A DNA stretch of 63,871 bases, counting the filler, from Kipferlia bialata (Eukaryota): the NCBI GenBank assembly GCA_003568945.1. It is 6 parts of 6 records of this genome, joined end to end, with 100 filler letters (N's around TTAATTAATTAA, not from the genome) between each part and the next. Parts side by side here need not be neighbours in the genome. Positions count along the whole stretch, not along the records: positions 1 to 13,042 come from BDIP01000992.1; 5 more parts are not named here. One strand, given 5' to 3'. The translations under genes were made by a program, and so were the position numbers. Of the stretch, positions 1 to 59,565 are shown one piece after another (positions within the stretch are counted from its first letter, which is position 1; every line of letters begins with the position of its first letter). The notes under the pieces are model-generated. The model was not told where the DNA came from and did no database searches. It saw only the letters and a list, made by a program, of their open reading frames with translations.

Positions 1-46
1 CCCCCTCCTAATCCCATAGAACCCCCCCCCCCCCCCCTCATCCCAG

Positions 47-1311
47 GCATGGATCTGTCCAACATGGAGATATGCCGCAAGTGTGATGCAGTGAGGCCGG
101 AGAGGGCCCACCACTGCTCCCTGTGCAACAAGTGCTACCTGAGGATGGACCACCACTGCCCGTGGGTATGTCACACACTATGTATGGTCTGACTATACTG
201 GTACAATGTGACTTATAGTGAAGAGAGGTCTTAGCCACACTCATATACACCTAATCATACACCCTCTGACCCTTGTAGGTTGCAAACTGCGTGGGTGTCA
301 ACAACTACGGGTACTTCTGGCTCTTCCTGCTCTGGGCATGCATAGGCACAGTCACCATGGGTGCGTGCTCCATACGTATACCTTATCTCTCCCTCTCTCT
401 CTCCATCTATACCCCCTCTGTCCTGTCTGACCCCAGGCTGTGGTATGATCCCCTATCTGTACAAGATGTTCACCACCAAGGGCTACGTGCCCCCAGTCTC
501 GGTGCTCGTGTCCATACCCATATCCATAGGGCTCAGCCTCGGCACAGCGTTCCTCCTCTTCGTCCACACATACCTCCTCGTTACCAACCAGGTACCCCGG
601 GACCATTACCCCTCAACCCTCCTGTGTTCTGTATAGTACTGTATATATACATGTGTGACCCTGACCCCAGACCACCATTGAGTTCTACCAGAACAGGTCT
701 GACCTCAATGAGGCTAAGAAGAGGGGGCAGACGTGGACAAACCCATACGACCTCGGGTGGGTGCCATGGTGTATCTGTATACTTACTCTGTCTCTCTCTC
801 CCTATCACTTACACCCTAGTCGCAAGGCCAACTTTGAAGAGATCATGGGTCCCGTCCACCCCCTCTTTGCCGTATTTGTTCCAGTACCCATCAGACCCCT
901 TTGTGATGGATTCAGCTACAGGCGCAAGGTTGGTGTGTCCTCTCTATCTCTACATGTCTCTCTCTCCCCCCTTTCCTTACTCACTATCAGACCCAGCCCC
1001 TGACCGTTCCCATGGGATGCGACATATTCCTGGAGGGGACTGATGTAGGGGGGAGGGGGGGAGAGAGTAAGCGGTCCCCCAGGGTAGGGGGTGGAGAGAG
1101 CGTGAGTGCTATTGGCCGTACTGATGCAGTGACCCAGGAGATGGATATGGACATGCCCTCTCTGCCTGGTACCCACTCTGCCAGGGGACCGTACGACTAT
1201 CCATCAGCTGGCCTTGCGGATATGTCCCTACCCGTTGTGTCCGGTATACCACACATACCACAGCCAGAGAGAGAGTCATATGGGGCCAGGAGGGCTAGGA
1301 AGGATGACTGA
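47..1311 (+). CDS. DHHC-type S-palmitoyltransferase, 5'-truncated, about 6 exons
   Basis: Exon 47-165 encodes [31 protein letters not shown] and the next exon [20 protein letters not shown] segments, a TTIEF motif and NPYDLG..NFEEIMG follow. Stop at 1309-1311. Confidence 0.95.
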
Positions 1312-1705: not shown

Positions 1706-3841
1706 TCACTCGGAGGGCTTCTGCCTCTGCCTCTCCTTCTCGGCTCTCTCTCTCTTCCACCGCTGGTTGCGGGCGGTGTTCTGTTCCCTCTCAGCACCGT
1801 GTACACCCCTGGTGGTCAGAGAGAGATGGGGAGAGGCTATAGGGCAATGGGGTCAGTATAGGAGTATGCATCCATCCCAATATATCCATCCCACCTGGAC
1901 CTGCTGGCTGCCCCGGCTGGGCCTGACCTTCCCTTGGCCCTGACAAACCTCACAGACACACCCTTGCACTGGATGGGTTCCTAGGGGGTGAGGCAGGGGG
2001 GGGGGGGTGATGGAAGAGAGAGAGGAGGGATGGTACCTTAGGGATGGCGGCCCAGACCTCTGCTGCATACTCGACCATGACGGTGTGGGTGGTGTCATCG
2101 TGCTGAAGGGTCAGACAGAGGAGGGGGGGGTATAGAGAAGGAGAGGGCCAAAGCTTGGAGAGAGAGAGAGAGGACAGTGGATACCCAGTACCCATAGCGT
2201 TCCCTACCTGCTGCATGCCCCTTGTGAATGAGTTGACCTCCCTGGCAGGCATCACCCTCTCCACCTGGCCGTACCTGCTGACAATGGCCTGCATGTCGTC
2301 CTGGGGGTGAGCGGGGGCAGAGGGAGTTATCTTTAGGAAAGGCAACACTATTAGTCACAAAGACGCAAATACACAATGAGGGTTTGAACGGAGTATACAT
2401 TCTAGAGTGTACATGTCTGCCGTACCATGCCGAGGTCTCCTGTCAGCTCAATGAAGCAACGGGTCTTGCCGCGGGCGGGCCTCTTCCTCTCCTCGGGGTT
2501 CCGCCTCTCTCTCTCTCCCTTTCCAGTAGCCCTGGGCTTAGGGGTTGCCTTGGACCTGTCGGCTCTGGGCTTGGCCTCCTTCTCTCTCCTAGGCTCTGCC
2601 TTGCCCTTGGCCTCCCTCTCTCTCCTGGGCCTCCTCTCCCTGGGCTCGGCCTTGGCCTTGGGGGCCTCCTCCTTAGCCTCCTTAGCCTCCTTAGCCTCCT
2701 TAGTCTCCTTGGCCTCCTTGGGCTCCACCTCAGCTACAGCCTCAGCAACAGCCTCAGTGGCCACTGGCTCAGGCTCGGCCTCCTTAGGGGCCTCATTCTC
2801 TGCCTCTGCCTCGGGAGCTGGGGTCTCAGCCTTGGCCTCGACCTCAGCCTCAGCCTTGGGTGCCTCAGCCACAGGCTCCTCCTCCTCCTCCTCCTTCTCC
2901 TCTACCACCTCCTCCACAGCCTCAGCAACCACAGCTGGGGTGGTCACAGGAGCACCGGGAACCTCCTCAAGTCTGGAATCAGAATAGGGTGGGGGGGGGA
3001 GTACCCTAACAGAGAGAGACGTATTACACTAATAGCTCACCTGAGGATGCTAGAGCGCACGATATAGGCTGTGAGAGGCTGACCCTTGGGGCCAACTGTC
3101 ACAATGTTATCTGAGGGTGAGCAAACTACATAGGATGGGGCCTCCAATACTCCTATCATATCACAGTGCGTACCAAGATGGAATGACTCCCAGAAAGTCT
3201 TTGTCTCCACATGGTGGGCAAATATGGACCCAGAACACATGATCAGGAGACCTGGGCTGAGACAACGCGATGAACACGGAAGAGACAACAGACCATGACC
3301 GGGACTGGCATACGCAGTAAAACACACACTCGGCCACATACGGGACAAACAAATGGCCCAAAGAACAACACAACAGCAGATAATAACATGGCCAAAGAGA
3401 AGTGACTCGGAACAGAGAATCTACACAATGATCACATACCTCCCTCATAGGCGCTACAATCAATGCTCTTGAGCTTGACATGGTCACCATAGGAAGTGAA
3501 CTCCGTCTTAATGAACTCGGCAACCTCCTCGGCTGTGTTGTACTGCTTGATGACCTCCCCTGCTGTCTGGGAAGAGTGGGTCACAGTGGTAGCAACCTTG
3601 TCATGATAGAAGATGATGCAGTGCTCAGGGTCGGTCAACAGCGTGGTGTAGTACTGAGTTAGAGCTGTGCAAAAGTGTACATCCCCCGCATACAATAAGG
3701 ACCTCCCTTCAGCGAGATAGAGGCTCGAAAAAGAGATCACCAACCAACACCGAACAATACAGACTGATAGAGGGCAAAATGCCTGTAAACTGGTTGTTAT
3801 ACCTCTGAGGCAAACTTGCAACCTAGTGAACGGCCGTTCAT
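1706..3841 (-). CDS. G3BP/Rasputin/Bre5-like protein (NTF2-like domain, acidic Glu/Ala linker, RRM)
   Basis: Spliced N-terminus MNGRSLGCKFASE|YYTTLLTDPEHCIIFYH...KLKSIDCS...IMCSGSI...KTFWESFHL resembles the G3BP NTF2 domain. An acidic/EAK-repeat exon lies at 2426-2975, then RRM-like exons (CFIELTGDL..DDMQAIVSRYGQVERV..VMVEY). Confidence 0.72.
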
Positions 3842-4053: not shown

Positions 4054-6582
4054 ATGTCTCTCGCCCTTGTTGAGAAGTTTTCCGGTGTTCTCTCCTCCGT
4101 ACGTTTTTATTGTCCTATATTGTGTGGTTTCTGGGGACTTGAGTGAGTTCGAACACTTTCTTCAATTGTCAACAGGTTCAAGTCCCTATTTCCAGTCATT
4201 TACGAACATCCGGCTTACTCCAGGCCGCCAGGAGCCTCGTGATCCACGAGTACCAGGCTAAGGGCCTCCTTCGTGACCACGGAGTGAAGACCCTTCCCGG
4301 TGAGGTCTGCTGGACCCCCGAGGAGGTTGTTACCGTCTGCGAGGACCTCCACGCCAACCAGGGAGTCAACCGCTTTGTTGTCAAGTCCCAGATCCACGCT
4401 GGTGGCCGTGGAATCGGAACCTTCACTGATGGATTCCAGGTATGAATGTGTGTCACTCGTATGGAGATATGACAATCGGTTTCACTAGCTCTATACTCGT
4501 ATGCACTCACTGTTTATCGTACATAGCTTGAATGTATACGGCTATGTTCAATGTGCTTACTTGAAGTATAGTACACAGTTGTGTTTCCATTGATATGTGT
4601 GTCAGAGTTTGTCATCTCTCCCCTGTCGTCATCATTCTCCTCACTCTTGTGGTACAATGCATTTGGTTTATCTGTTCTGGATATGTGTTGATATGATACT
4701 GCTTTGCCTTTGCGTGACTCCCTGTTCTCACTGCAGGGTGGCGTCCACCTCTGTGACACCCCCATGGAGGCCAAGGAGCTGGCTGCCCACATGATCAACA
4801 ACACGTGAGTATCAGTCACTCTTCGCTACCCGGCCTTTCACACAATCATTATCCGTATGAATGTATCCATTTCCATTAGCTCTCCTCTCCTCTATCATCC
4901 CGACCCTCACACCAGCCTTGTGACCAAGCAGACCCCCCCTGAGGGCCGCCTTGTGAGGAGGGTGTTCATCGAGGGCGCCGCTGACATCGAGAGGGAGCTC
5001 TACTTCTCCATCCTCATGGACAGGAACTCCAGGGGACCCATGGTCGTGGCCTCCGTCTGCGGAGGTGGGTCGGCTGCTGTTGCCTAAGTGATACATTTAT
5101 GTGTATATTTGTTGTGCATTTGCAACTCTCCATGTGTTATTGGTGTCCATTCGCCCTAGAACTGCCAGTGATATTCCTTATGGTATTCCCATTCTATTCC
5201 CCTAACTGTATGAGCGTACGTGTATCATATATTCCTTGTGCCATCATCACCCACCCCCAGGTGTGGACATTGAGTCTGTGGCCCACGAGACCCCCGAGAT
5301 GATCATCACCATGCCCATCGACATCGACGAGGGCATGACCATCGAGCAGGCCGGAGAGCTCGCCAAGCAGCTCGGTGAGTGCCTGTGTTCAGAATTCCCC
5401 TCTCCCTCTCTGTATGCTTATCATGTCTGACCGTAGGATTCGACAGGCAGCCCCAGCAGGCCACCGAGCAGATCCTGGCTCTCTACGAGACCTTCAGGAG
5501 CACCGACGCCACCCAGGTATCAGTGTATGTTGGATATCGGACTGGTGGAGCTATACTACTCTGGTGCTTATACCGTTTGTGTCTGACGCCAGGTTGAGAT
5601 CAACCCCCTGGCCGAGCTCAAGGACGGGTCCGCCGCTTCCCTCGACGCCAAGCTGAACTTCGACGCTAACGCCGAGTTCAGGCAGGTACGGGGTTGTGTT
5701 ATATTGTATCATGTCATTCCCACTACCCCCTCCCCCCCCTTCTCCTTACTGCCGACCCACCCCAGGAGGAGGTCTTCGCCATGCGTGACATGGCCGAGGA
5801 GAACTGGAGGTAGGGGTGCATGGTATATATGTTGTGTGGCAGCGTGTCACATGTTGTGTCTGACGCCCAGGGAGATTGAGGCCACCAAGTTCGGCCTCAA
5901 CTACATCGGCCTCGACGGCAACGTGGGATGCCTTGTCAACGGCGCCGGTCTCGCCATGGCCACCCTCGACGTGCTCAAGGTGGGTATTATGCCCCTCTCT
6001 GCCAGGGGCAGTCTTGGTCGTTTTTCTCTCTTTCTTGTGTTCTGACCTCCAGCTCAACGGAGCCGAGCCCGCCAACTTCATGGACACTGCCGGTGCCATC
6101 ACCATCGACAAGGTATATACATACCATACATACATACATACATACATGCATATATACATACATATACATCACCATCGACAAGGTACTCCTCCACTCCTTC
6201 CTCACTCACTTCCACATTGCCATTACAACCCTTACCCTAGGTCTGCCAGGCCCTCGAGATCATCATGTCCGACGAGAACGTCGAGGTCCTCCTGATCAAC
6301 GTGTTCGGAGGTATCGTGTCCTGCAAGATCCTTGCCGAGGGCATCCTCAAGTTCAACGAGACCAAGGGCCTCAACATCCCCCTGGTCGTCAGGATGGAGG
6401 GCACCCACGTGGAGGCCGGAAAGGCACTCCTCGAGGCCTCCCCCATCGAGTACTACAAGGTACAGGGGCATTAGTAGAGTGTATATATATGCTGTATTGT
6501 GACAGTGTTGTTCTCCATCTCACCCCAGGCCGACAACCTCAAGGAGGCTTGCGAGAAGGCCGCCCAGCTCTCCAAGAAGTAA
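4054..6582 (+). CDS. sucC: Succinyl-CoA ligase (synthetase) beta subunit with a short N-terminal organellar leader
   Basis: Exons give [109 protein letters not shown] and [12 protein letters not shown] at 6580-6582. Confidence 0.97.
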
Positions 6583-6800
6583 TTGGAGATAGAGGATGTG
6601 GATATGACCGAATGGTCTTGTGTTAGTAGACTCTTTTGCAGAGAATAGAAGGATATTAGTTATTATCTGGGAGCGGAGGGCTATCATTCTCATTATACTA
6701 GGCCTTGTAGTATACACGAACCGACAATCGTAATGCTTAATGAATTTACGAGAACCCAAGAGGGCCTAATCAAACACTCCCCATCATACACTCACTGCAC

Positions 6801-8908
6801 TCAGATCTCGACAGTCTCTGCCGGTGGCTGGGAGGCAGACTTGAACCTCTGGCCCCTGTCTGTGTCGACCTCTCTCTCTCTCTCCCTGATGTCCCTCCTG
6901 TGACTGTGTGCGTGAGGGTGGGGGTGAGGGTGTGTCTCCTGGGTCTCCTGGGGAAGGTCGAGGCCCTGGGGTGAGAGTGTAAAGATAGACACACATCGAC
7001 ATACACACCAAAACCCTCCCCCACCTCCAGCTGCTCCATGCTGATGACTGGTGATATGACTGGGTTGACCACAATCTGCACGTTGATGGGCTGCACCCCC
7101 TGGGTACCCATCCCAGCACCCACTGCACCCACTGCAGAGGAGAAGATGGGGACAGAGGGGGGAGGCCTAGGGGTGAGAGTGGAAGATGGTCGTGTCAGTA
7201 TCAGTGCTGTACACTGGGCACATACCTGACAGGGATAGGGGGAGAGTGGGACTGGGCGTGTGTCTGGGTGTGGGAGAGAGGGTGGGAGCCAGTCTCCTTG
7301 GGGGCACCGGCTGGACCGGCAGTAGCAGGGGTGGGGGCCTAGTATTAGCACAACATATACACATAGTACACGATATATACCAGCTCACGACATCCTCTAC
7401 TCCACGACTCCGATAATGTGTGGTACCTGGGACTGTACGGGTGTCACTGTCTGGGTGACAGAGACTGTGGCGGGTAGGGAGGGGGGAGCGTGCTCAATGG
7501 GGGGGAACATCTCCTGGGGTCAGACGACACGATGGAGAGAGAGGGGGGGAGAGGGGGGGGGGGATCCGGTACCTGACGGGAAGGGGGCACAACGACTCCC
7601 ATGAGAGACGCAATCTCACGCTGCCTGGATGTCAGAATAACATGTACGGTGCTTACAGTAACCCATACACCCACACATACACACTCCTTCCCCACCTGGC
7701 CTCCTTGAACCTGTTGGACACCCTGAGGTACTTGTACCACCCGTCCCAGTGCCTCGGGATGAGGCCTGGGGGTAAGAGGAGGTGAGGGTAGGGATGGTTA
7801 CTACGCGAATACACGCATGTACGCACCGGCCTTCTGTGCGATGGACCTCTGCACCCTGTTGGCAAAGTCAATGGGGGTCTCATCCTCCTGGGGGTCAGTC
7901 ACTCTAGTGGTATATATATATATATACAGAGTGCATACTACACCATGACCCTATATCGGAAGTATACAGAATTCGCCTGTACCTGTATCCTTGTCCTGTC
8001 TATGAAGTGCACGTCCACCACCACAGCCCATCTGGTCATGATGTCGATGATGTGCATCAGGAAGGACTTCTTCCTGGGGGTTGGTTTAGTGTATATACAG
8101 TATGGTATATAGAACGGGCGATGTCTCACACTAGCACCCCACCTGCTGTTCCAGTAGCAGCACGAGCTGAACAGGTCGTTGTACTTGATGGCAATGGGGA
8201 CAACATCGGCCCCAAGCTCAAAGGCTCCCTGGGGTAAGGCAAGAGAACAAGGATGTATAGGCCCTACTCTGTACACAGTACCCAATCCTACCTTCTTGAA
8301 GAGCACGCAGTACTTGTTGTTGACACATGTACCCTCTGGGAATAGGAGGAGAGGCTGCTTGTCCTCCCCAAACACATGCTCTGTGATGCGCTTGCCCACC
8401 TAAGGGGTCAGACACACAGATTGGGGGAATGATACTGGAAGTGTAAAAGTACAATACTGATACCACGTACCAGCCCCCTCTCCCTCTTCTCCATCCTGTC
8501 GAACCACACTGGGTCGAGGCAGTCCAGGATGTTCTTCTGTATCCATCCAATCCAGCCCTGGGGTCAGAGAAGGTAGGTGGGGACACTGTATCATGTATAC
8601 ATGGTGAGATGTATACATGGTGAGATATGGGTCTATTCATGATCAGATGGGCAATAGTAACACTAACGACCCATACAAACCTTGTGGAGCTGTCCCACGA
8701 CTGACATAGGGGTGTAGCTGGAGAGGAGCAGCCAGTCGATCATGGAGGTGTGGTTGGCAACAAGCACCTGGGGGTCAGGGGCAGGGTGGGGGCTACTATA
8801 CTATGGCTATACACACTCGCACCTGCCCACTCTTCATCTCTGGCAGTGTGCCATGGAACTGGACCACTCCCATCCAGGACATGACCAGGACCTGGAGGTT
8901 AGGGTAAG

Positions 8909-8947
<39 letters not shown>

Positions 8948-10939
8948 GTTGGGCCGGGTACCTGGCAGAATGACCTGATGCACCAGACCCTGACCCTCTT
9001 CCTCTTCTGTCTCTCCATGAGATGGGAGCCTATCAGGACGAGGGTAAGCAGTGAGAAGCCGACAGCAATGATCATGACCTGGGGTGGGTGGGGGGATGGT
9101 GGAATACACATGCATAATCATACACTTATGACACTACACTATGACTAAGGACCAATGACATATACCTTGACCGGGAACAGGATGCAGTACCGGGTCACAA
9201 CCCCGACCAGCCACATGACCTAGGGGTGAGGCAGGGAGAGAGTGAGTGATACTGATAGTGATACTGATACTGATACAACCCCTACCAGCCACATGACCTA
9301 GGGGTCAGACGCAGACGATGTGGAAAGAGAGTGGTGGTGGAGCCAAACAAGTAACTGGTAGATCTCAGTAGATACAGAGAGATACATGCCCGTACCATGA
9401 GGAAAGGGTTCCAGTTCCAGGGCCTGGGTCTCTGGTCATCGAAGCACTCGGTGAAGGAGTCCTGGGTTAGGGTATCCATAACCATATCCATCGATATATG
9501 TGTGTATGCGTATATGTATACACTGTATCACCCACCACACTCCGTGAAGGAGTCTTGGGTCGGAGGCTGATACAGCAACACGGCGCCATCACTCGCATTC
9601 CCAGAAATGAATGTATACATAAACCGCCGCCCACCTGCACCACCGCCTGCATGGCGTCTCTGAGGGGGTCGAACAGCATCTCCATCCTGAAGACAGGCTC
9701 GGGGGGCTGCTCGGCATCACCAACCTGGGGGTGAGAATACAGGAGGTGGATAATGGCGAGATCAAATCAAGGCCATGCCATCTATCTGTGCCCCGTACCA
9801 GCTGTGCTGTGATGAGGCGTCTCCTGTGTCTGTGTGCAGTCATGATCCTAGGGTGAGGGTGAGGGTAACACGGGATGGGCTATATATGATGGTAGGATAG
9901 GCCCCCACCTGCTCTCCAGCACTCTGTTGATCTCATTGACAAAGGAGGGGTCGATGTGGACAGGCTCAACCTGGGATGGGATGGGAGGGGAGAGAGAGGA
10001 ACATCACACTTGAGACAGAAAGGTGAGAGAGAGTATATGAGAATCCATACCGGGAACATGTCATTGCCAAATGCGTCCCCGTCCCCATCCTTGGACACAA
10101 AGGCCAGCCTGGAGTGAACAGGTATATAATATATACAATATATATACATTGTGTATAAATACGAAGATCTTGGCCAAGACGCCAATTGCCGCACCTGACT
10201 GCTGCCTCGTCCGACAGGTTGAGAGACCCTCTGATAAGGGCGGGTGCCCTACTAGCATAGGGGACGGGCTGGGTGTGGGCCTTGACCATAGACATGGGCT
10301 TGTACACAGCCTAGGGTAAGAGTAAGAGGTGGAGGAACCAGAGGTAGAGATACCACAGATGAGGAATCCTATTGGACACCAACAGTGACACACAGCCATA
10401 CCTCAGGCGACCTGTTTGGCCCCTTGGCTGTGTGTGTCCCACCCATGCCAGTGTGGTCAGGAACAGGGCTCGACTCGTCATCTGGTATCAATCCACTAGC
10501 AAAACGTCCCACTGATTGATGACGATTAGTCCATAACGGAACACACACTCCCTATATATGTACATAGCTACTAGGGCCCCGTACCTGTGAGTGCCCCTCG
10601 GAGGAAGGACCTACTGCCTGTGAAGCCTGAGGAGTAGGACCCGGCCCTGTTGGTATTGGACAAAGGAGCGGCACTAAAGAGCGAGGAGGCAGACGACACA
10701 GAGGGGGAGAACGACGAGGACGAGGCATCTGTGTCCTCCCAGGTGTCTGGCACCACCCCATCCACTGTCTCCCGGGACCTCTCCACAGTCTGGGTCTGGG
10801 CCGAGACTGGCGTGCCCGGTATTGACTCACCATCACTGTCTGCAAGAGGGACCACAGTGTCAGCAATCTCGACCTCAGGTGTGGCCAGTCCTGGTCGATC
10901 CCCAGTCTCTTCCATATGTGCGGGGCTTAGCTCGCTCAT
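6801..10939 (-). CDS. Glycerol-3-phosphate acyltransferase, GPAT3/4/GPAT9 family (PlsC-type acyltransferase), many exons
   Basis: Motifs DSFTECF..PWNWN, VANHTSMID (about 8738-8764), LLLFPEGTCVNNKYCVLFKK|GAFEL..PIAIKY..YWNS and WDGWYKY. Long Ser-rich N-terminal extension. Exact ends inferred from splicing. Confidence 0.92.
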
Positions 10940-11144
10940 GCGAGTGATCAAGAGACGTGAGTACCAGCTGGGTGACAGACTCTGTCAGACAGAGTGGGAA
11001 ACCTTTGTGTCGAGAAATTAATAAAACCTAGGCCCTCCTTCGAGCAAATGGTCGCCTGTTCCACATTGTTGAGAGAAGTTCTTGTGCTTTCAAGTCTATC
11101 AGAACCCAGAATTCCATAGGAGCCCCTTACTGGCGTCTTAAGCA
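10940..11144. promoter_or_regulatory. Short divergent promoter region between the GPAT gene and the intein-like gene
   Basis: Head-to-head ATGs at 10939 (-) and 11145 (+), 205 bp apart. Confidence 0.4.
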
Positions 11145-12983
11145 ATGTTCTCGGCCCAGTCAAAGGTTCTCTTGAACATCTGGACAGGAGATACCACCTC
11201 TCTGCCCGAAATTGACAGTGTAGAGCATGTACAGGCCATCACGCCCTCTGGAACTGATGTAGACTTCCAGCATCAGCCTCCAGGCGATGTTATTGGTGCA
11301 GTGGAGCCCTGTGGCGATAAGCCGCTGTATTACCTTCAGACTGTCTCTGGCCATGAACTGGTGGTATCTGGCGACACGCTGGTGCGGACGTCGGACTCAA
11401 CCTCCGTTAGAGTCGCCGATCTCAAGCCAGATGGAGACAATAAGCTGCCAGCTGTAGCCGTGACCCACGCCAAGGTGTCCTCGGCAAGGTGAGTGAACGT
11501 GTGTCAATTGTGAAGGGCTGCATTCAATTTGCCTTTGCTCTTCGCTCACTCATGTGTTGTATTGATGTTCCATCCTGTGTTCTCTCATTGATATTTACTC
11601 AATTGATGTAGTTCATCAACTCCTCTGGTGTGTATTTGTCATACACGACCATCCGGGAATTCCACGGTTATAGCCCTATATTCCATTTCCTGTCCCCACC
11701 TCACCCCAGATACGAGAGTGGGGCCTGGGATACTTTGAATGATACCGAGTTCCTGGAGCAGCAGAGACGGCGACCCATTATCACTGAGGTTAGTTTCATT
11801 CTCTCTATTTCCTCTTTGACCTTACACTTTGTGCTTGTGTGGGTTTTGGCTTCTGTCTATCTCATGTCTCTGTGAGGACCAGTCAGTATCAGGTGATAGT
11901 GCCTCTGAGTTATATAGAGAAGGAAGTGTTGTGTTGTGCAAGTGTTTTCCCGTCCCGTGAGTATGTATACCCGCTCCTCATTGTCTCTCTATCTCTCTCT
12001 CTGTCTGACTGTCTAGGCTGAGATGGAGAAGAACCTGGTTGTAACAGGTCTGACACACGAGGCCAGGAAGGACGTCATGAGCAGGTATAGCACATATACC
12101 CCTTGCCATTGTCTCTCTTTCGTCAGATGTCTTTCTCCTCTCCTGCCTCACCCTAAGGTTCAAGACTGTAGGCATTGTCCCCGTGCTCATGGGCGCCCAG
12201 ACCTCCCTTCTCTTCAGGGTGCTTGGTGCCATATCCTCCAGCGGCATAGTCACAGTCACGAGGGGGTCCACTCTCGAGAAGCTCAAGGTGGGGGATTGTG
12301 ATGTTTGTGATACAGGGTCTCTCTCTCTCTCTCTCTCTCCACTGACCCCAGATCCGCGTTGCTCTTGTGCACCATGCCGAGGGGGTGCTGACTCAGATTG
12401 CAGACGAGATCGACTCCTTTGGACTCGGGCAGGTACCGCACTCTCACATTCTCCGACATATCCCCCCCCACCATACCCACCCCACCCTCACCCCAGGCCG
12501 ACCTGGCTGACCTAGGCGAGGCCGAGACCAGGGAGCTGCTGCCCAGGTTCTACACCGGAATCCTCTCTGCTGCCAGGTACCCACAGTACATATCCACCCA
12601 CACCCCACACACCCAAATACATGCATATATATACTTTCTATAATCCCCTCCCATGTATATATCCCAACACCAGGCTCTCCGAGAGCATGCGCCTTCTGAC
12701 CCTGCCCCAGCACTTTGCCCTTCTCCTGCTGGCCCTGGGACTCGTCCCAGGACCCCCTCTCAAGTGAGTGTATGTAGTCTCAGAGCATGTCTCCTCGCTC
12801 TCTTACTCTACCCCCACTCTTCCCTACATCCTCACCCCCAGGGTCAACTCTGTGCCTGCCTGTGTGCGTGCCCTCTCTCCCTTCCACCAGCACATCGAGG
12901 CATACCTGGCCGGACTCCTCTCCATCAGACCAGTGGCTGTGTACCGGAAGCCATGCCGCAGACCATTCTTCAGAGACCCCCAG
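11145..12983 (+). CDS. Stand-alone intein-like protein (Hint N-terminal region plus degenerate LAGLIDADG/DOD endonuclease), 8 exons visible, 3'-truncated by the contig end
   Basis: Phase-compatible exons at 11145-11488, 11710-11788, 12017-12084, ~12158-12287, ~12352-12432, ~12497-12576, ~12674-12763 and ~12842-12983. They translate to MFSAQSKVLL...KPLYYLQTVSGHELVVSGDTLV...VRVADLKPDG...RFKTVGIVPV..LLFRVLGAISSSG...QHFALLLLALGLVPG..VNSVPACVR..EAYLAGLLS. Confidence 0.75.
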
Positions 12984-12990
12984 GTACTGT

Positions 12991-13042
<52 letters not shown>

Positions 13043-13142
13043 NNNNNNNNNNNNNNNNNNNNNNNNNNNNNNNNNNNNNNNNNNNNTTAATTAATTAANN
13101 NNNNNNNNNNNNNNNNNNNNNNNNNNNNNNNNNNNNNNNNNN
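13043..13142. other. Artificial contig linker (N-run, TTAATTAATTAA, N-run)
   Basis: 100-nt spacer with stops in all six frames, identical at five positions. Confidence 0.99.
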
Positions 13143-13190
<48 letters not shown>

Positions 13191-13948: not shown

Positions 13949-16900
13949 ATGCCAGAGGAGCACTATGGCAGCTCTACACTGAGCGCCATGTGCCCCGGCA
14001 TCCCACCCGGCCTAGCAAGGGTAGTAGTGCCTGCAGTGATTGGATTGTGTGACGGTTCCAACACCGACCCCCAGCACCTAAGCCTCCGCCCTCTAGCACT
14101 CAGTGTGTCCCAACAACTTGACGGTCTGTCCTTAGGTGTCTCTGAGGTTCATGTGATGTCAGTGTTAGACCAGCACCTCTTCCTTGTGGGTCAGTGTCAG
14201 GGTGGGGGTGGCTGCCACTCTGACCTTGTCTCTGCCCTTCTCTCTGACCGTCCCTACACCCCTATAGCAGACTCGGGGGAGGACATCACCACCAGGTATC
14301 TCTCTGTCTGGACAAATACTGATTCCTTCTTACACAATGGTGACTCCCTAGTGGTGACACTCAGTAGTGTCGTCTACACGCATGCCCACATATATACTTG
14401 GTGACAGCAAGTTGGTGTACAATGTGTATACATACATATACATACATACCTGTATATACATACCTATATACATATACCTATTTATTAAAGTCGCACTCAC
14501 ACCCAGGTGTCAGGTGATACGAGTCCTCTGGCCATGCATCCAGGCCCTGCTGTCCTCTGTCTCTCGCCTGTGTCCGTCCCATACCAATGATGCATTGACC
14601 GATGCACCCGATGCATGCCTCAGATACCCCAGCGAGGGGGGGGCACACCACATGGCTCCTGAGGAGTACGGAGACACATGGGAGAGGGGAAGCCAGCCTG
14701 TCTGTCTCTACAATGAGGCCAACCGCACCCTCCACCTGGCGCGGCTAGCGGCGATATCCAGTCAACTACTCTCCATGACCCTGAGATACAACACGATGCA
14801 GATGCAGCCCAGGGCCATGTCGCTGGCTGCTGCCCTACAGGTATCCGAGACACTTCTCATTCAGCAGGACCTCTGCAGTGAGGACGGTGTGCAGTACCAG
14901 GAGGCCCTCCATGTCTGGACCCAGGCCACTGCCCCTGTCCTGTCATTGTTCATGAAGCAGGTATCGGGGTATGCATTGTACTATACCCTATACAGTATCT
15001 GGTGTTAATACTGGTCTCTACCCTGTACAGTATCTGGGTGTATACACAGCGTAGGCCGTGTATTCATTATGGCGTTGTACTAGTTTCACTAGGTATGAGG
15101 CAATATTCTATATATTAGAAACTTGCTTAATAATACTCACAATTCAACGTGATGATATGATTATTCTGTGATGGAATACATTCGTTTATAGCCGAATCCC
15201 TACCTGTCTAACAAGACCAGAGAGGGTCCCGATCCCACCCCATCAGGCCTCTCATGGTACTGCTTGGGGCTAGGGGTGTGGGAAAGACATGGCAAGCAGC
15301 TGCCTTCGCACTACAGACTGCAAGGGACAAGCACCTCGCCACCGTGCCCTACTACGTGTCCCTGCGCCACCCCTTGAGGGATACCCTCCTCTCATGCTTT
15401 GGGGTGTCTGAGCCTGGGGCACTGGCCAAGTGCATATGCAGCATGGCATCTAGGGGGAAGGGACTGCTACTGATCCTAGACGGTCTGCAGGAGGTTCAGG
15501 GGGAAGAGCAACGCCATGAGACAATATCGTGGGTCCTTCAGCTCTTAAAGGTGTGTTCTGTACATCGAGAGAGTCCTTATTATAGTGACACTGGATAATC
15601 TTATGTATTTACTCATTAGATCAATAGTTTTAAATGATGATTTGACGGTTATACTCTCTCACAGATTTTATCACAGATGTGGGCTTCTTACTTACCGGAT
15701 ACTACTCCTTTCTCATACCTTATCCCTTAGAGCGCCCCTCCCACCACTCGTGTACTCCTCACGTCCACCCGCGAGACGTGGCACGAGTGCATTGGTGCTG
15801 GTGTCTCCTTGTACAGACCCGTGGTGGAGGCCCTCACCTTCAGAGCATCTCCCTGTCAAGACGACCCTTCGACCACCACACTACCCCACATGTCCCGAAC
15901 AGAGATACAGGAAGGGCTGTCCCGCTACGGACTGCCTTGTGTGCTGACGTCCACTGTTACAGAACTGGGTGGCTCCCCTAGTCTCCTCGGGGTCCTGTCT
16001 CGACACATGTCAGGTGTGGACGCTATGCCCTCTGACACCACCTCCATGTCCCTGGCGGTGTTTGAGGGACTGGGCCTCACCCCAGAAGTGCTGTCGGAGT
16101 GTGTGTACCCTCTATTCAAGTGCCTGGGATACGGCACAGACGGCAGGGTATCGGATTGCGACCTGGTGGGGCTCAGGTCTCTGCCTGGGTGGAGTACCGT
16201 CACTAACTCGGGTCTACTATGCAGGGTGAGTGAGACTGTGCACACACTGAGGCACCAATACAGACCCTTTGCACAGGTACTTATGCACAACCTGGACGGG
16301 AAGACAGAGCACCGGCAAATGCTAGTCGCAGAGCTGCTCAAAACAGAGGTTACCTTTAACCAGAGGCTGTGGGAGTTAAGGCGAAGACTCACAGAACTCA
16401 GTCTTGGACTAAAGGGGGCCAGAAAGGAGACAGCGGAGCTAGGTCGCTACACTAGAAACCTCAACATCATACAGGAAGTGAGTGATGGCTTCATCAGAGA
16501 CCTGGAAGCGATGGGAGCTACTCCGGCCACGTTGGGTGATGTACTGAACAGCAACGCGGCATCTATCTGTATGTACAAGCCGTACATAGCCCAGCTAGCG
16601 GCATGCCACCGATACCTTGCAGGGAGGAGGGTGAGCAGGGCTCTGAAGGCAGTAAGGGTGGAGAGCGTGGGAGGAGACCCTGAACCATGGTAAGCCACCG
16701 TACGTACTGGATGATAACCACAGTTATGATATAGAGAAGCGCCGCTGTGTAACAGCAGCCTAAGATTGTAAGAGAATTATATGTCCATCGCCAACCGCAG
16801 GCCCACCTCAGCCCTTCTTGTTGAGCCAGCACAGCGCACCATGCGATACCACCTACTCGCCAGTGAGTACAGGAAGTGCCTCCCCCCTAACCACCATGAG

Positions 16901-17920
16901 ATAGTGTCTATGGACAAGGCAGTGTGTGTCCTATCACAAATGGCACAGGGGGTCAATGAGACGGAGCGCCAGGTGGATGGCAAGACGGGTCTGCGCACCC
17001 TCTGTCAGACACTCACAGGGCAAGGATCTAAAGAGCTGGCTGTGCTACTGCTGCAGCCTCACCGGACAGTGGTGGCTGAGATGGAAATGGAGGTAGATGT
17101 ATGTGTCATACCAAAGACAATATGACTCCATTTGTTCTGTCACCAAACCCATGCATTTCTGACTCAAGGTGGAGACTGGGATTCAAGGCACGGGTTCCAA
17201 CCTCCACAGGGTGTATCTCCTGAATGACATGGTATTGGTGATGGGTCCTGTGGATACCACAGAGGCACACACCTGTGTGGTCAGATCATCGCTAGGGGAA
17301 GTGGAGGTATTTGTCAATCCCAATGTATACAGGACTGCGCTTCAGTAATACTGAATCAGTATCCATCGTCGTGGAGACAAATCTCGTTGGAGTAGTTAGG
17401 TCTCCCTTATACTCTCAATTTGAGAGTATCAACGCTAGTACGACTGGAATTCTGCATTCCCCACCCCAGATAGAGATGGCGGGTCCTGGTGGTGCCCCGA
17501 CCCTGTTGAGGCTGAGGGTGTGTATAGCTTACTAAATAATATATAATATGTATGGGATTCCACCTTTAATCCACTTGGACATGTGTGCTACGAGGACATA
17601 ATGTCTATAACTTGCCGTTGTCTAATGAGTGGGAATAGATGTGGGTATATATCTCAAGGCACATCTCCCTCCATCCCCTTCCTGACCTAGGTATCAGGCC
17701 TCAGTCTCTCTACAGTCTCAGCCTATAGTGCTGGGGTATGGGCCCCAAGAGTCATGGCAGCTGTGGTAGGGCACACTATGTATGTATACTTATTATGTAT
17801 AACTGTATGTGAATATTATGACACTATTGGTTGGAACTGTCCCCATATAGCTTCGTTATGAAAGTGTATTGGTACTCTGACGCTAGACTGCCCAGCAGGA
17901 CCGTTAGGCTGGGGAGTTAA
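13949..17920 (+). CDS. NACHT/STAND-like P-loop NTPase fused to a Dbl-homology RhoGEF (DH) and a PH-like domain
   Basis: NTPase motifs: Walker A GARGVGKT (15266-15289), Walker B LLLILDGLQE (15464-15493), sensor-1-like RVLLTSTR and GxP-like ELGGSPSLL. DH motifs: HRQMLVAELLKTEVTF, YKPYIAQ and LLVEPAQRTMRYHLL..CLPPNH..MAQGVNE. PH-like HRVYLLNDMVLV. TAA at 17918-17920. Confidence 0.8.
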
Positions 17921-26183: not shown

Positions 26184-26283
26184 NNNNNNNNNNNNNNNNN
26201 NNNNNNNNNNNNNNNNNNNNNNNNNNNTTAATTAATTAANNNNNNNNNNNNNNNNNNNNNNNNNNNNNNNNNNNNNNNNNNNN
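26184..26283. other. Artificial contig linker
   Basis: N-run, TTAATTAATTAA, N-run. Confidence 0.99.
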
Positions 26284-39322: not shown

Positions 39323-39422
39323 NNNNNNNNNNNNNNNNNNNNNNNNNNNNNNNNNNNNNNNNNNNNTTAATTAATTAANNNNNNNNNNNNNNNNNNNNNN
39401 NNNNNNNNNNNNNNNNNNNNNN
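39323..39422. other. Artificial contig linker
   Basis: N-run, TTAATTAATTAA, N-run. Confidence 0.99.
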
Positions 39423-59465: not shown

Positions 59466-59565
59466 NNNNNNNNNNNNNNNNNNNNNNNNNNNNNNNNNNN
59501 NNNNNNNNNTTAATTAATTAANNNNNNNNNNNNNNNNNNNNNNNNNNNNNNNNNNNNNNNNNNNN
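59466..59565. other. Artificial contig linker
   Basis: N-run, TTAATTAATTAA, N-run. Confidence 0.99.

What the first reader, a model, noticed from the sequence alone, without database searches (positions are those of the whole stretch)
11145..12983. Candidate domesticated intein: free-standing, intron-split Hint-LAGLIDADG gene with apparently dead catalytic sites
Seen in sequence: eight phase-compatible spliceosomal exons form an uninterrupted ORF. It starts at its own ATG, with an in-frame TAA two codons upstream and only 205 bp to the divergent GPAT start, so there is no N-extein. Established: bifunctional inteins run block A (C-F/L-xxx-T-x-V/I), block B (VY.L.T.SG..L.xTxxH), W..A.DL..GD, then the LAGLIDADG blocks C and E. 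Here the same order appears as MFSAQSKVLL, LYYLQTVSGHELVVSGDT, VRVADLKPDG, LLFRVLGAISSSG and EAYLAGLLSI. The intervening stretches (RFKTVGIVPV; HFALLLLALGLVPG..SVPACVR) recall, from memory, archaeal RtcB-type inteins. Every catalytic position is replaced: Cys1 by Met, the block-B His by Thr, and both LAGLIDADG acidic residues are lost. Inference: a prokaryote- or virus-derived intein escaped its host gene, gained introns and was kept as a non-splicing, non-cutting DNA-binding or scaffold protein. This would parallel yeast HO (domesticated intein, still cuts) and bacterial WhiA (dead LAGLIDADG regulator), but in a protist.
Basis: partly seen in the sequence, partly recalled or inferred. Interest (0 to 1): 0.92.

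Follow-up and report, generated by a model that had tools for sequence, protein, structure and literature searches.

The report
Disarmed intein heads a protist protein
A spliced, expressed gene of the free-living protist Kipferlia begins with what is likely a prokaryotic self-splicing intein and homing nuclease that has lost its catalytic residues, and it likely runs on into a much longer protein whose end is missing from the assembly, which would make it a rare domesticated intein outside yeasts.

Summary
The gene is real: it is Kipferlia bialata KIPB_004597 (338 aa, partial). An RNA contig supports all seven introns (five joints listed, two by exact length). No Pfam, NCBIfam, PHROGs or PDB-sequence hit and no relative was found. 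Intein ancestry is nevertheless supported. ESM Atlas look-alikes are intein/LAGLIDADG clusters. A profile of 60 prokaryotic RtcB inteins aligns end to end and beats all 2,000 shuffles, though weakly (8.9 bits). The five visible catalytic positions are all replaced (Cys1>Met, His>Thr, Asp>Ser, Lys>Pro, Glu>Arg), while 16 of 31 other conserved positions are kept. The contig ends inside intron 8, and the RNA contig runs 3,254 nt further. An intein would need only about 580 nt of that, and neighbouring mRNAs have 3' UTRs of 66-80 nt. The product is therefore probably about 1,390 aa, with roughly 850 unseen residues behind the intein. Best reading: a domesticated, non-splicing, non-cutting RtcB-type intein fold kept as the N-terminal module of a large protein, HO/WHO-like in layout and WhiA-like in its dead nuclease. 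Function, Hint-C end and orthologues are untested.

The parts
11145..11488 (+). Exon 1: start ATG and Hint N-half (blocks A and B), aa 1-114
   Evidence: Sequence; RNA contig covers 11158-11486; generic intein profile 9.6 bits on aa 1-100, 0 of 1000 shuffles reach it
11139..11141 (+). In-frame TAA two codons before the ATG: no N-extein in cis
11145..11147 (+). Met1 at the position of the intein nucleophile Cys1
   Evidence: Cys in 60 of 60 RtcB inteins at this column
11367..11378 (+). Block B core: Ser75 (Thr/Ser B:7 kept), Asp77 kept, Thr78 in place of His B:10
   Evidence: His in 60 of 60 RtcB inteins
11710..11788 (+). Exon 2: start of helical linker between Hint-N and nuclease domain
12017..12084 (+). 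Exon 3: helical linker typical of long RtcB inteins
12158..12287 (+). Exon 4: end of linker and first LAGLIDADG helix (block C, about 12216-12245); Ser192 in place of the metal-binding Asp
   Evidence: Asp in 56 of 60 RtcB inteins; no acidic residue in aa 180-200
12352..12432 (+). Exon 5: LAGLIDADG domain 1 strand and helix
12497..12576 (+). Exon 6: LAGLIDADG domain 1, predicted beta hairpin
12674..12763 (+). Exon 7: helix and block D region; Pro289 at the column of the conserved Lys (a Lys lies two residues further)
   Evidence: Lys in 56 of 60; nine residues identical to an RtcB intein of P0002
12842..12983 (+). Exon 8: second LAGLIDADG helix (block E, about 12903-12929); Arg320 in place of the acidic residue
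   Evidence: Glu/Asp in 60 of 60; no acidic residue between aa 311 and 335
12984..13042 (+). Start of intron 8 (GT donor, poly-C) and end of the assembly contig; the gene's 3' part is not in the window
   Evidence: RNA contig leaves the DNA at 12983 with 3,254 nt still to come; continuation not found in window
10940..11144 (.). 205-bp spacer shared with the divergent acyltransferase (GPAT-like) gene; probable bidirectional promoter (inferred)

Best explanation
The gene is spliced and expressed, and its first 338 residues are likely a prokaryotic RtcB-type intein that no longer splices or cuts DNA and is likely kept as the folded N-terminal module of a protein of about 1,390 residues. Shown: intact frame, seven introns removed in RNA, no room for an N-extein in cis, five of five visible catalytic positions replaced. 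Inferred history: an intein of the long RtcB class entered the nuclear genome by gene transfer, lost its upstream extein so that a start Met now sits at the Cys1 position, gained host-type introns, and lost the chemistry of both active sites while the fold-defining glycines, prolines and helix residues were kept. Inferred mechanism: it works as a non-catalytic binding module, the LAGLIDADG saddle and Hint sheet holding nucleic acid or a protein partner for whatever the unseen 850-residue C-terminal part does, as the dead LAGLIDADG domain does in WhiA and as the extein-less intein body carries the zinc finger in HO and WHO. Separate odds: intein ancestry 0.93; no N-terminal splicing and no DNA cleavage 0.9; maintained by selection 0.8; long fusion rather than stand-alone 0.7.
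For: RNA contig with GT-AG joints, 4,255 nt, 1,001 nt on the eight exons. Neighbouring RNA contigs are single mRNAs that start within 30 nt of their ATG and have 3' UTRs of 80 nt and at least 66 nt. RtcB inteins have a median 193 residues left after the aligned part, against up to 1,084 codons left in the RNA. Atlas: of the 7 feature rows listed, 6 carry intein/Hint/LAGLIDADG families (best 0.91); all 10 structure rows are clusters with intein or LAGLIDADG/WhiA families, row 1 an RtcB cluster (TM 0.44 whole, 0.56 for aa 100-338). RtcB-intein HMM: 8.9 bits, P 2.8e-5, 0 of 2,000 shuffles as high; hhalign global 1-338 against 1-312 of 498 columns, P 3e-6. Linker plus nuclease part: RtcB profile 7.7 bits (0 of 1,000 shuffles), profile of 39 other inteins -3.5 bits (297 of 1,000). 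Catalytic positions kept 0 of 5, other highly conserved positions 16 of 31, weakly conserved positions 42 of 233 (Fisher p 0.04 for the first contrast). GC3 0.68 against 0.48 in introns.
Against: Local pairwise scores do not favour RtcB inteins over others (7 of 60 against 6 of 40 with z above 3, p 0.38), and BLASTP to P0002 finds nothing meaningful. Atlas feature hits share only about 150 of 256 features, TM-scores for the whole protein are under 0.5, and shuffled proteins reach 0.9 four to ten times in 100. No orthologue found, so selection cannot be measured. The 3' 3,254 nt were not read; the RNA contig could run into a neighbour's transcript. Net charge of the nuclease span is 0 against a median of +5.5 in RtcB inteins (range -12 to +16), which does not support DNA binding. 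DNA and RNA runs are one sample.
Confidence: 0.5

Rival explanations
1. Stand-alone dead intein: the frame ends near residue 530-550 after the Hint C-half, and the rest of the RNA contig is a long UTR or an overlapping neighbour's transcript.
For: Only 338 residues are seen and all align to an intein; contigs can run across two genes (tool note); convergent genes lie close in this genome (219 bp between the stops at 6582 and 6801).
Against: It needs about 2.6 kb of non-coding or foreign sequence, whereas both neighbouring RNA contigs are single mRNAs with UTRs under 100 nt.
Confidence: 0.2
2. Remnant of a transferred rtcB gene: the intein is still followed by its C-extein (RtcB from the catalytic Cys on), possibly with a second intein between, giving a dead or split RNA-ligase-like protein.
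For: RtcB-type affinity. A natural two-intein RtcB, P0002, measures 1,398 residues from its first intein to its end, close to the estimate of about 1,390; a one-intein form would be about 910-930.
Against: Only a length coincidence; P0001 is closer to the second intein of P0002 (z 4.6) than to the first (z 3.2). RtcB without its N-extein lacks a metal ligand (own knowledge). No RtcB-like frame in the window, which says little since the 3' contig is elsewhere.
Confidence: 0.15
3. Self-removing pro-domain: splicing is dead but an intact block F/G (His-Asn) still cleaves at the intein's C-terminal end and releases the large downstream protein with a fresh N-terminal Cys, Ser or Thr.
For: C-terminal cleavage by Asn cyclisation uses block F/G residues, not Cys1, and occurs off-pathway (PMC4031507, passages); those residues lie in the unseen part.
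Against: In some inteins C-terminal cleavage is coupled to the earlier steps, and loss of His B:10 strongly lowers it in a class 2 intein (same passages). HO and WHO lack motif G (PMC7282813, passages). It does not explain why the nuclease fold is kept.
Confidence: 0.08
4. Transcribed relic with no function, drifting neutrally.
For: About 18% identity to RtcB inteins, no relatives anywhere, all catalytic residues gone.
Against: No stop or frameshift in 338 codons despite that divergence; seven correctly spliced introns; conserved structural columns kept at 52% against 18% elsewhere.
Confidence: 0.04
5. Chance resemblance: an unrelated alpha/beta protein.
For: No curated profile hit; single-sequence AlphaFold fails (pLDDT 34) and finds nothing in PDB; exon 1 alone ranks second in a six-frame window search (E 2.9).
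Against: Two separate regions match two different intein profiles in the right order beyond all shuffles, and the Atlas model, made without my alignment, lands on intein and LAGLIDADG clusters.
Confidence: 0.03

Closest known systems
Long RtcB inteins of bacteria and archaea (448-516 aa; 60 fetched)
   Same: Domain order Hint-N, helical linker, LAGLIDADG helices; family-typical linker end and block D helix; best semi-global matches L063, L058, L020.
   Different: No N-extein, Met for Cys1, Thr for His B:10, no acidic LAGLIDADG residues, seven spliceosomal introns inside the coding sequence, about 18% identity.
Yeast HO and WHO endonucleases (PMC7282813, passages)
   Same: Independently expressed nuclear gene made of an intein body with no exteins and no protein splicing, with extra C-terminal sequence; a start Met at the Cys1 position in HO is recalled, not checked here.
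   Different: HO/WHO come from the VDE intein, still cut DNA and end in a zinc finger; the paper calls them the only intein-zinc finger fusions known. This protein is RtcB-type, predicted unable to cut, and its C-terminal part is probably far larger and unread.
WhiA/DUF199 (PMC3384342, passages)
   Same: LAGLIDADG fold without the metal-binding acids and basic catalytic residues, kept for a host role; WhiA clusters and structures appear among the fold matches.
   Different: WhiA is bacterial, has no Hint domain and binds DNA through a C-terminal HTH; no WhiA Pfam hit here.
Anaeramoeba nuclear inteins (PMC10710043, passages)
   Same: Prokaryote-like inteins in a metamonad nucleus, including one in RtcB.
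   Different: Those sit inside host proteins; the Anaeramoeba RtcB intein is at another site and clusters with PEPS inteins; introns are reported near empty insertion sites rather than inside inteins.
Eukaryotic Hint-domain proteins (Hedgehog/Hog, Vint, BIL; PMC5784728, passages)
   Same: Hint fold used in a host protein.
   Different: They lack the LAGLIDADG insert and keep autoprocessing residues.

Membership tests
Bifunctional class 1 intein | In-frame N-extein | tested here: not met
   In-frame TAA at 11139; 205 bp to the divergent gene; no 5' loose end in the RNA contig, which however starts 13 nt inside the ATG; one AG at 11142 is open to the ATG but lacks the usual branch motif spacing
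Bifunctional class 1 intein | Cys/Ser at position 1 | tested here: not met
   Met1 against Cys in 60 of 60
Bifunctional class 1 intein | Block B Thr B:7 and His B:10 | tested here: not met
   Ser75 kept, His replaced by Thr78
Bifunctional class 1 intein | Hint N-half sequence/fold | tested here: met
   9.6 bits with a profile of 39 inteins, 0 of 1,000 shuffles; Atlas; below every curated cut-off
Bifunctional class 1 intein | LAGLIDADG helices C and E in order after Hint-N | tested here: met
   own AlphaFold model agrees but was driven by an intein alignment
Bifunctional class 1 intein | Acidic metal ligands in blocks C and E | tested here: not met
   Ser192, Arg320; no Asp/Glu near either helix end
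Bifunctional class 1 intein | Blocks F and G (His-Asn) and a Cys/Ser/Thr +1 | not testable with these tools
   Beyond the contig end; no whole genome held
Class 2 / class 3 intein | Splicing without Cys1, needing an N-extein and His B:10 | tested here: not met
   No N-extein in cis and no His B:10 (PMC4031507 passages); Cys F:4 not visible
RtcB intein lineage | Long helical linker and family-typical nuclease domain | tested here: met
   7.7 against -3.5 bits; semi-global z of 4 or more in 10 of 60 against 0 of 39; no difference by local pairwise scores; only 39 other inteins sampled
RtcB intein lineage | Inserted in an rtcB gene | tested here: inconclusive
   N-side absent; C-side unread
HO/WHO | Extein-less intein body expressed from its own start | tested here: inconclusive
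   Met on the N side; C side unread
HO/WHO | Active LAGLIDADG nuclease | tested here: not met
   Both acids lost; by sequence only, no assay
HO/WHO | C-terminal CxxC zinc finger; descent from VDE | not testable with these tools
   3' part missing; no tree built
WhiA/DUF199 | LAGLIDADG fold lacking catalytic acids | tested here: met
WhiA/DUF199 | No Hint domain; WhiA_N, LAGLIDADG_WhiA and HTH profiles | tested here: not met
   Hint N-half present; no WhiA Pfam hit; HTH not testable
Domesticated mobile-element gene | Intact, expressed, host-type gene structure | tested here: met
Domesticated mobile-element gene | Orthologues under purifying selection; host function | not testable with these tools
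   No relative found

The most novel reading that the evidence does not exclude
A whole bifunctional prokaryotic intein, both active sites switched off and the coding sequence filled with spliceosomal introns, has become the N-terminal nucleic-acid- or partner-binding domain of a new host protein of about 1,400 residues in a protist: a route to domestication independent of yeast HO/WHO, and one in which the Hint and the LAGLIDADG folds are both kept purely as scaffolds.
Probability: 0.4. Interest if true: 0.82.

Novelty: new variant of a known kind. Interest (0 to 1): 0.66.

Why it matters
The intein literature proposes that inteins are rare in eukaryotes partly because they were domesticated and lost their features (PMC5784728, passages), but HO/WHO are the clear cases with a nuclease domain, and they still cut. 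This gene would be an independent case in another supergroup, from another intein family, degraded past the reach of Pfam. It shows that such genes escape profile surveys and gives a testable example of the end state: fold kept, both chemistries lost, introns gained. Reading one existing 4.2-kb RNA contig would show what the intein was fused to.

Tried and rejected
Curated libraries: no family at E up to 10 in Pfam, NCBIfam, PHROGs, and no PDB sequence. Relatives: only the protein itself in three word-index searches for exon 1 (longer) and P0001 (near) and in phmmer over 1.84 billion representatives; the profile search for longer proteins returned 31 prokaryotic or unnamed intein-bearing proteins and none with a eukaryotic source label; metagenome scan 0 of 234 pattern matches confirmed; tblastn on phages (3 records) and plasmids (5 records) gave only chance hits at E 2-9. 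Single-sequence AlphaFold pLDDT 34 and its PDB search were uninformative. The alignment-driven model (pLDDT 74) matches PI-PfuI, PI-PkoII, TliVMA, I-DmoI, WhiA and Hint domains but is circular and is not counted as independent evidence. The 3' exons are not in the window; the sequence after the gap at 13143 belongs to another contig. A first exon join with three boundaries off by one base was corrected. Panels: 98 loci from a scan of 14 of 64 parts, 62 gave complete RtcB inteins, 2 mini-inteins dropped; 45 candidate other inteins, 3 RtcB inteins and 2 rows of L118 dropped (40), then one viral RtcB intein (39). Motif counts were picked after seeing the alignment and are descriptive only. No tree was built: at about 18% identity a donor could not be resolved. 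Earlier findings of the scan: none returned. Print: no paper holds Kipferlia with intein, RtcB or LAGLIDADG; supplements searched without hits, but one search also missed words that the appendix should hold and one PDF was unreadable, so these blanks are weak.

Full report
Observation. With three boundaries corrected by one base they give a stop-free frame of 338 codons, identical to database protein P0001, labelled Kipferlia bialata KIPB_004597 / g4597.t1, partial. All seven introns are GT-AG, 64-228 nt long, and six end in the CTCAC/CTGAC-then-AG pattern seen across the window. An in-frame TAA lies at 11139, and 205 bp separate the ATG from the divergent acyltransferase gene. GC at third positions is 0.68 against 0.48 in the introns.

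Expression. Two runs hold the stretch, both from one sample. X1 keeps the introns. X2 is only guessed to be RNA, but its contigs skip GT-AG introns and one ends in poly(A). A 4,255-nt X2 contig starts 13 nt inside the ATG and lists joints for five of the seven introns; the other two fit by exact length (147 and 159 nt). At 12983 it leaves the DNA at a GT donor; the first ten codons beyond are open in frame (read by eye), and 3,254 nt remain. The DNA contig ends at 13042 in a poly-C run. The window is a chain of unrelated contigs with stop linkers, and the next exon is not in it. The two neighbouring RNA contigs each equal one mRNA: 417 codons with an 80-nt 3' UTR and 755 codons with at least 66 nt (with the ATG at 10939). 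By that yardstick the frame may reach about 1,390 codons. This is an inference: a contig can run through two overlapping transcripts.

Ancestry. Curated libraries see nothing, and no relative was found among 5.8 billion clusters, 1.84 billion representatives or metagenome contigs. The ESM Atlas, which uses none of my alignments, returns intein/Hint/LAGLIDADG families in 6 of 7 listed feature rows (best 0.91) and in all 10 structure rows, with an RtcB cluster first (TM 0.44; 0.56 for residues 100-338). By the tool's own notes these scores are leads, not proof. I fetched RtcB genes with an intein at the DIN/C site (pattern recalled) and kept 60 full-length inteins. Their profile scores P0001 at 8.9 bits (P 2.8e-5), above all 1,000 global and 1,000 local shuffles (best 3.5 and 7.0). 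hhalign aligns residues 1-338 to columns 1-312 of 498 (P 3e-6, probability 75%; local 70%). A profile of 39 inteins from other host genes matches only the Hint part (9.6 bits, 0 of 1,000 shuffles). The linker and nuclease part is matched by the RtcB profile (7.7 bits, 0 of 1,000) and not by the mixed one (-3.5 bits, 297 of 1,000). The mixed profile is heterogeneous, so this does not exclude an unsampled family. Semi-global pairwise scores favour RtcB inteins (z of 4 or more in 10 of 60 against 0 of 39); local pairwise scores do not (p 0.38). The best single matches are long inteins from a planctomycete, Rhodothermus and a methanosarcinal, so 'prokaryotic' is as far as the donor can be named. 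AlphaFold fails on the lone sequence (pLDDT 34). With the intein alignment it gives pLDDT 74 and matches intein and LAGLIDADG structures, which shows compatibility only.

Catalytic state. In the alignment Cys1 (60 of 60) is Met, His B:10 (60 of 60) is Thr, the block C Asp (56 of 60) is Ser, the block D Lys (56 of 60) is Pro, with a Lys two residues away, and the block E acid (60 of 60) is Arg. No acidic residue lies near the end of either LAGLIDADG helix, so this does not hang on a one-residue shift. Of the other 31 columns conserved in at least 90% of the inteins, 16 are kept, against 42 of 233 weaker columns. Chemistry lost and fold kept is the pattern expected from selection on structure (Fisher p 0.04; small numbers). 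From known mechanism (PMC4031507 and PMC3384342, passages), a protein with no N-extein, no position-1 nucleophile and no His B:10 cannot splice by class 1, 2 or 3 routes, and a LAGLIDADG domain without both acids cannot cut DNA. Blocks F and G are unread, so C-terminal self-cleavage stays open.

How it most likely works. RtcB inteins have a median 193 residues left after the aligned part, so the intein body should end near residue 530-550, leaving room for about 850 more. I take the protein to be a large fusion whose N-terminal intein fold serves as a non-catalytic binding module (0.5). DNA binding is not supported by charge (net 0 over residues 176-325; RtcB inteins median +5.5, range -12 to +16), so a protein-partner role, as proposed for the WhiA LAGLIDADG domain, is as likely. 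Rivals are a stand-alone dead intein (0.2), a remnant rtcB with its C-extein (0.15; a two-intein RtcB, P0002, spans 1,398 residues from its first intein, a length match only), a self-removing pro-domain (0.08), a neutral relic (0.04) and chance (0.03).

Comparison and novelty. It is not a member of the functional inteins, of HO/WHO or of WhiA: each fails a defining test. It is laid out like HO/WHO (own start, no N-extein, extra C-terminal sequence) and disarmed like WhiA. Papers seen: PMC7282813, PMC10710043, PMC5784728, PMC3384342, PMC4031507, PMC1635734, PMC5874029 and PMC12699882 as passages; supplements of PMC5874029, PMC10710043, PMC12699882 and PMC8516963 by word search only. Searches for Kipferlia with intein, RtcB or LAGLIDADG found no paper. 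A narrow search for introns inside inteins gave two papers; the one I opened concerns introns in host genes. The library lacks most subscription papers. I score it as a new variant of a known kind, interest 0.66: surprising to intein specialists and cheap to settle, but seen in one species, with three quarters of the transcript unread and no function shown.

Noticed in passing
window 13043-13142, 26184-26283, 39323-39422, 52454-52553, 59466-59565: N-run/TTAATTAATTAA/N-run linkers join unrelated contigs (13,042, 13,041, 13,039, 13,031 bp ...); gene neighbourhoods across them are not real.
   Followed up: yes
window 15212-17125 (+): A NACHT/AAA P-loop exon (PF05729, E 3e-7) lies just upstream of RhoGEF exons (PF00621, E 2e-7); possibly one gene with an unusual NACHT-RhoGEF pairing.
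   Followed up: partly
window 4054-6582 (+): Succinyl-CoA-synthetase-beta-like gene (ATP-grasp_2 and Ligase_CoA), 417 codons, poly(A) at 6662; its RNA contig carries 24 unmatched letters before 4062, either a library chimera or a leader.
   Followed up: partly
window 6801-10939 (-): Acyltransferase (GPAT-like) gene of 755 codons with a long low-complexity N-terminal exon, divergent from the intein-derived gene; RNA contig 2,360 nt.
   Followed up: partly
window about 1740-3690 (-) and 1-1300 (+): An NTF2-domain gene with a long Glu/Ala/Lys-rich middle (G3BP-like layout, recalled) and a DHHC palmitoyltransferase gene, convergent.
   Followed up: no
P0002: A 1,475-aa RtcB with two related long inteins only 25 residues apart (78-581 and 607-1100).
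   Followed up: partly
L099, L100, L101, L105 (viral contigs) and L195: Inteins related to the RtcB class in viruses, two of them on giant-virus MAG contigs (L101, L105), and in a nanoarchaeal ATPase-like gene; L099 looks like a viral RtcB with an intein at the same site.
   Followed up: partly
L055, L076: RtcB mini-inteins of about 134 aa at the same site as the long ones.
   Followed up: no
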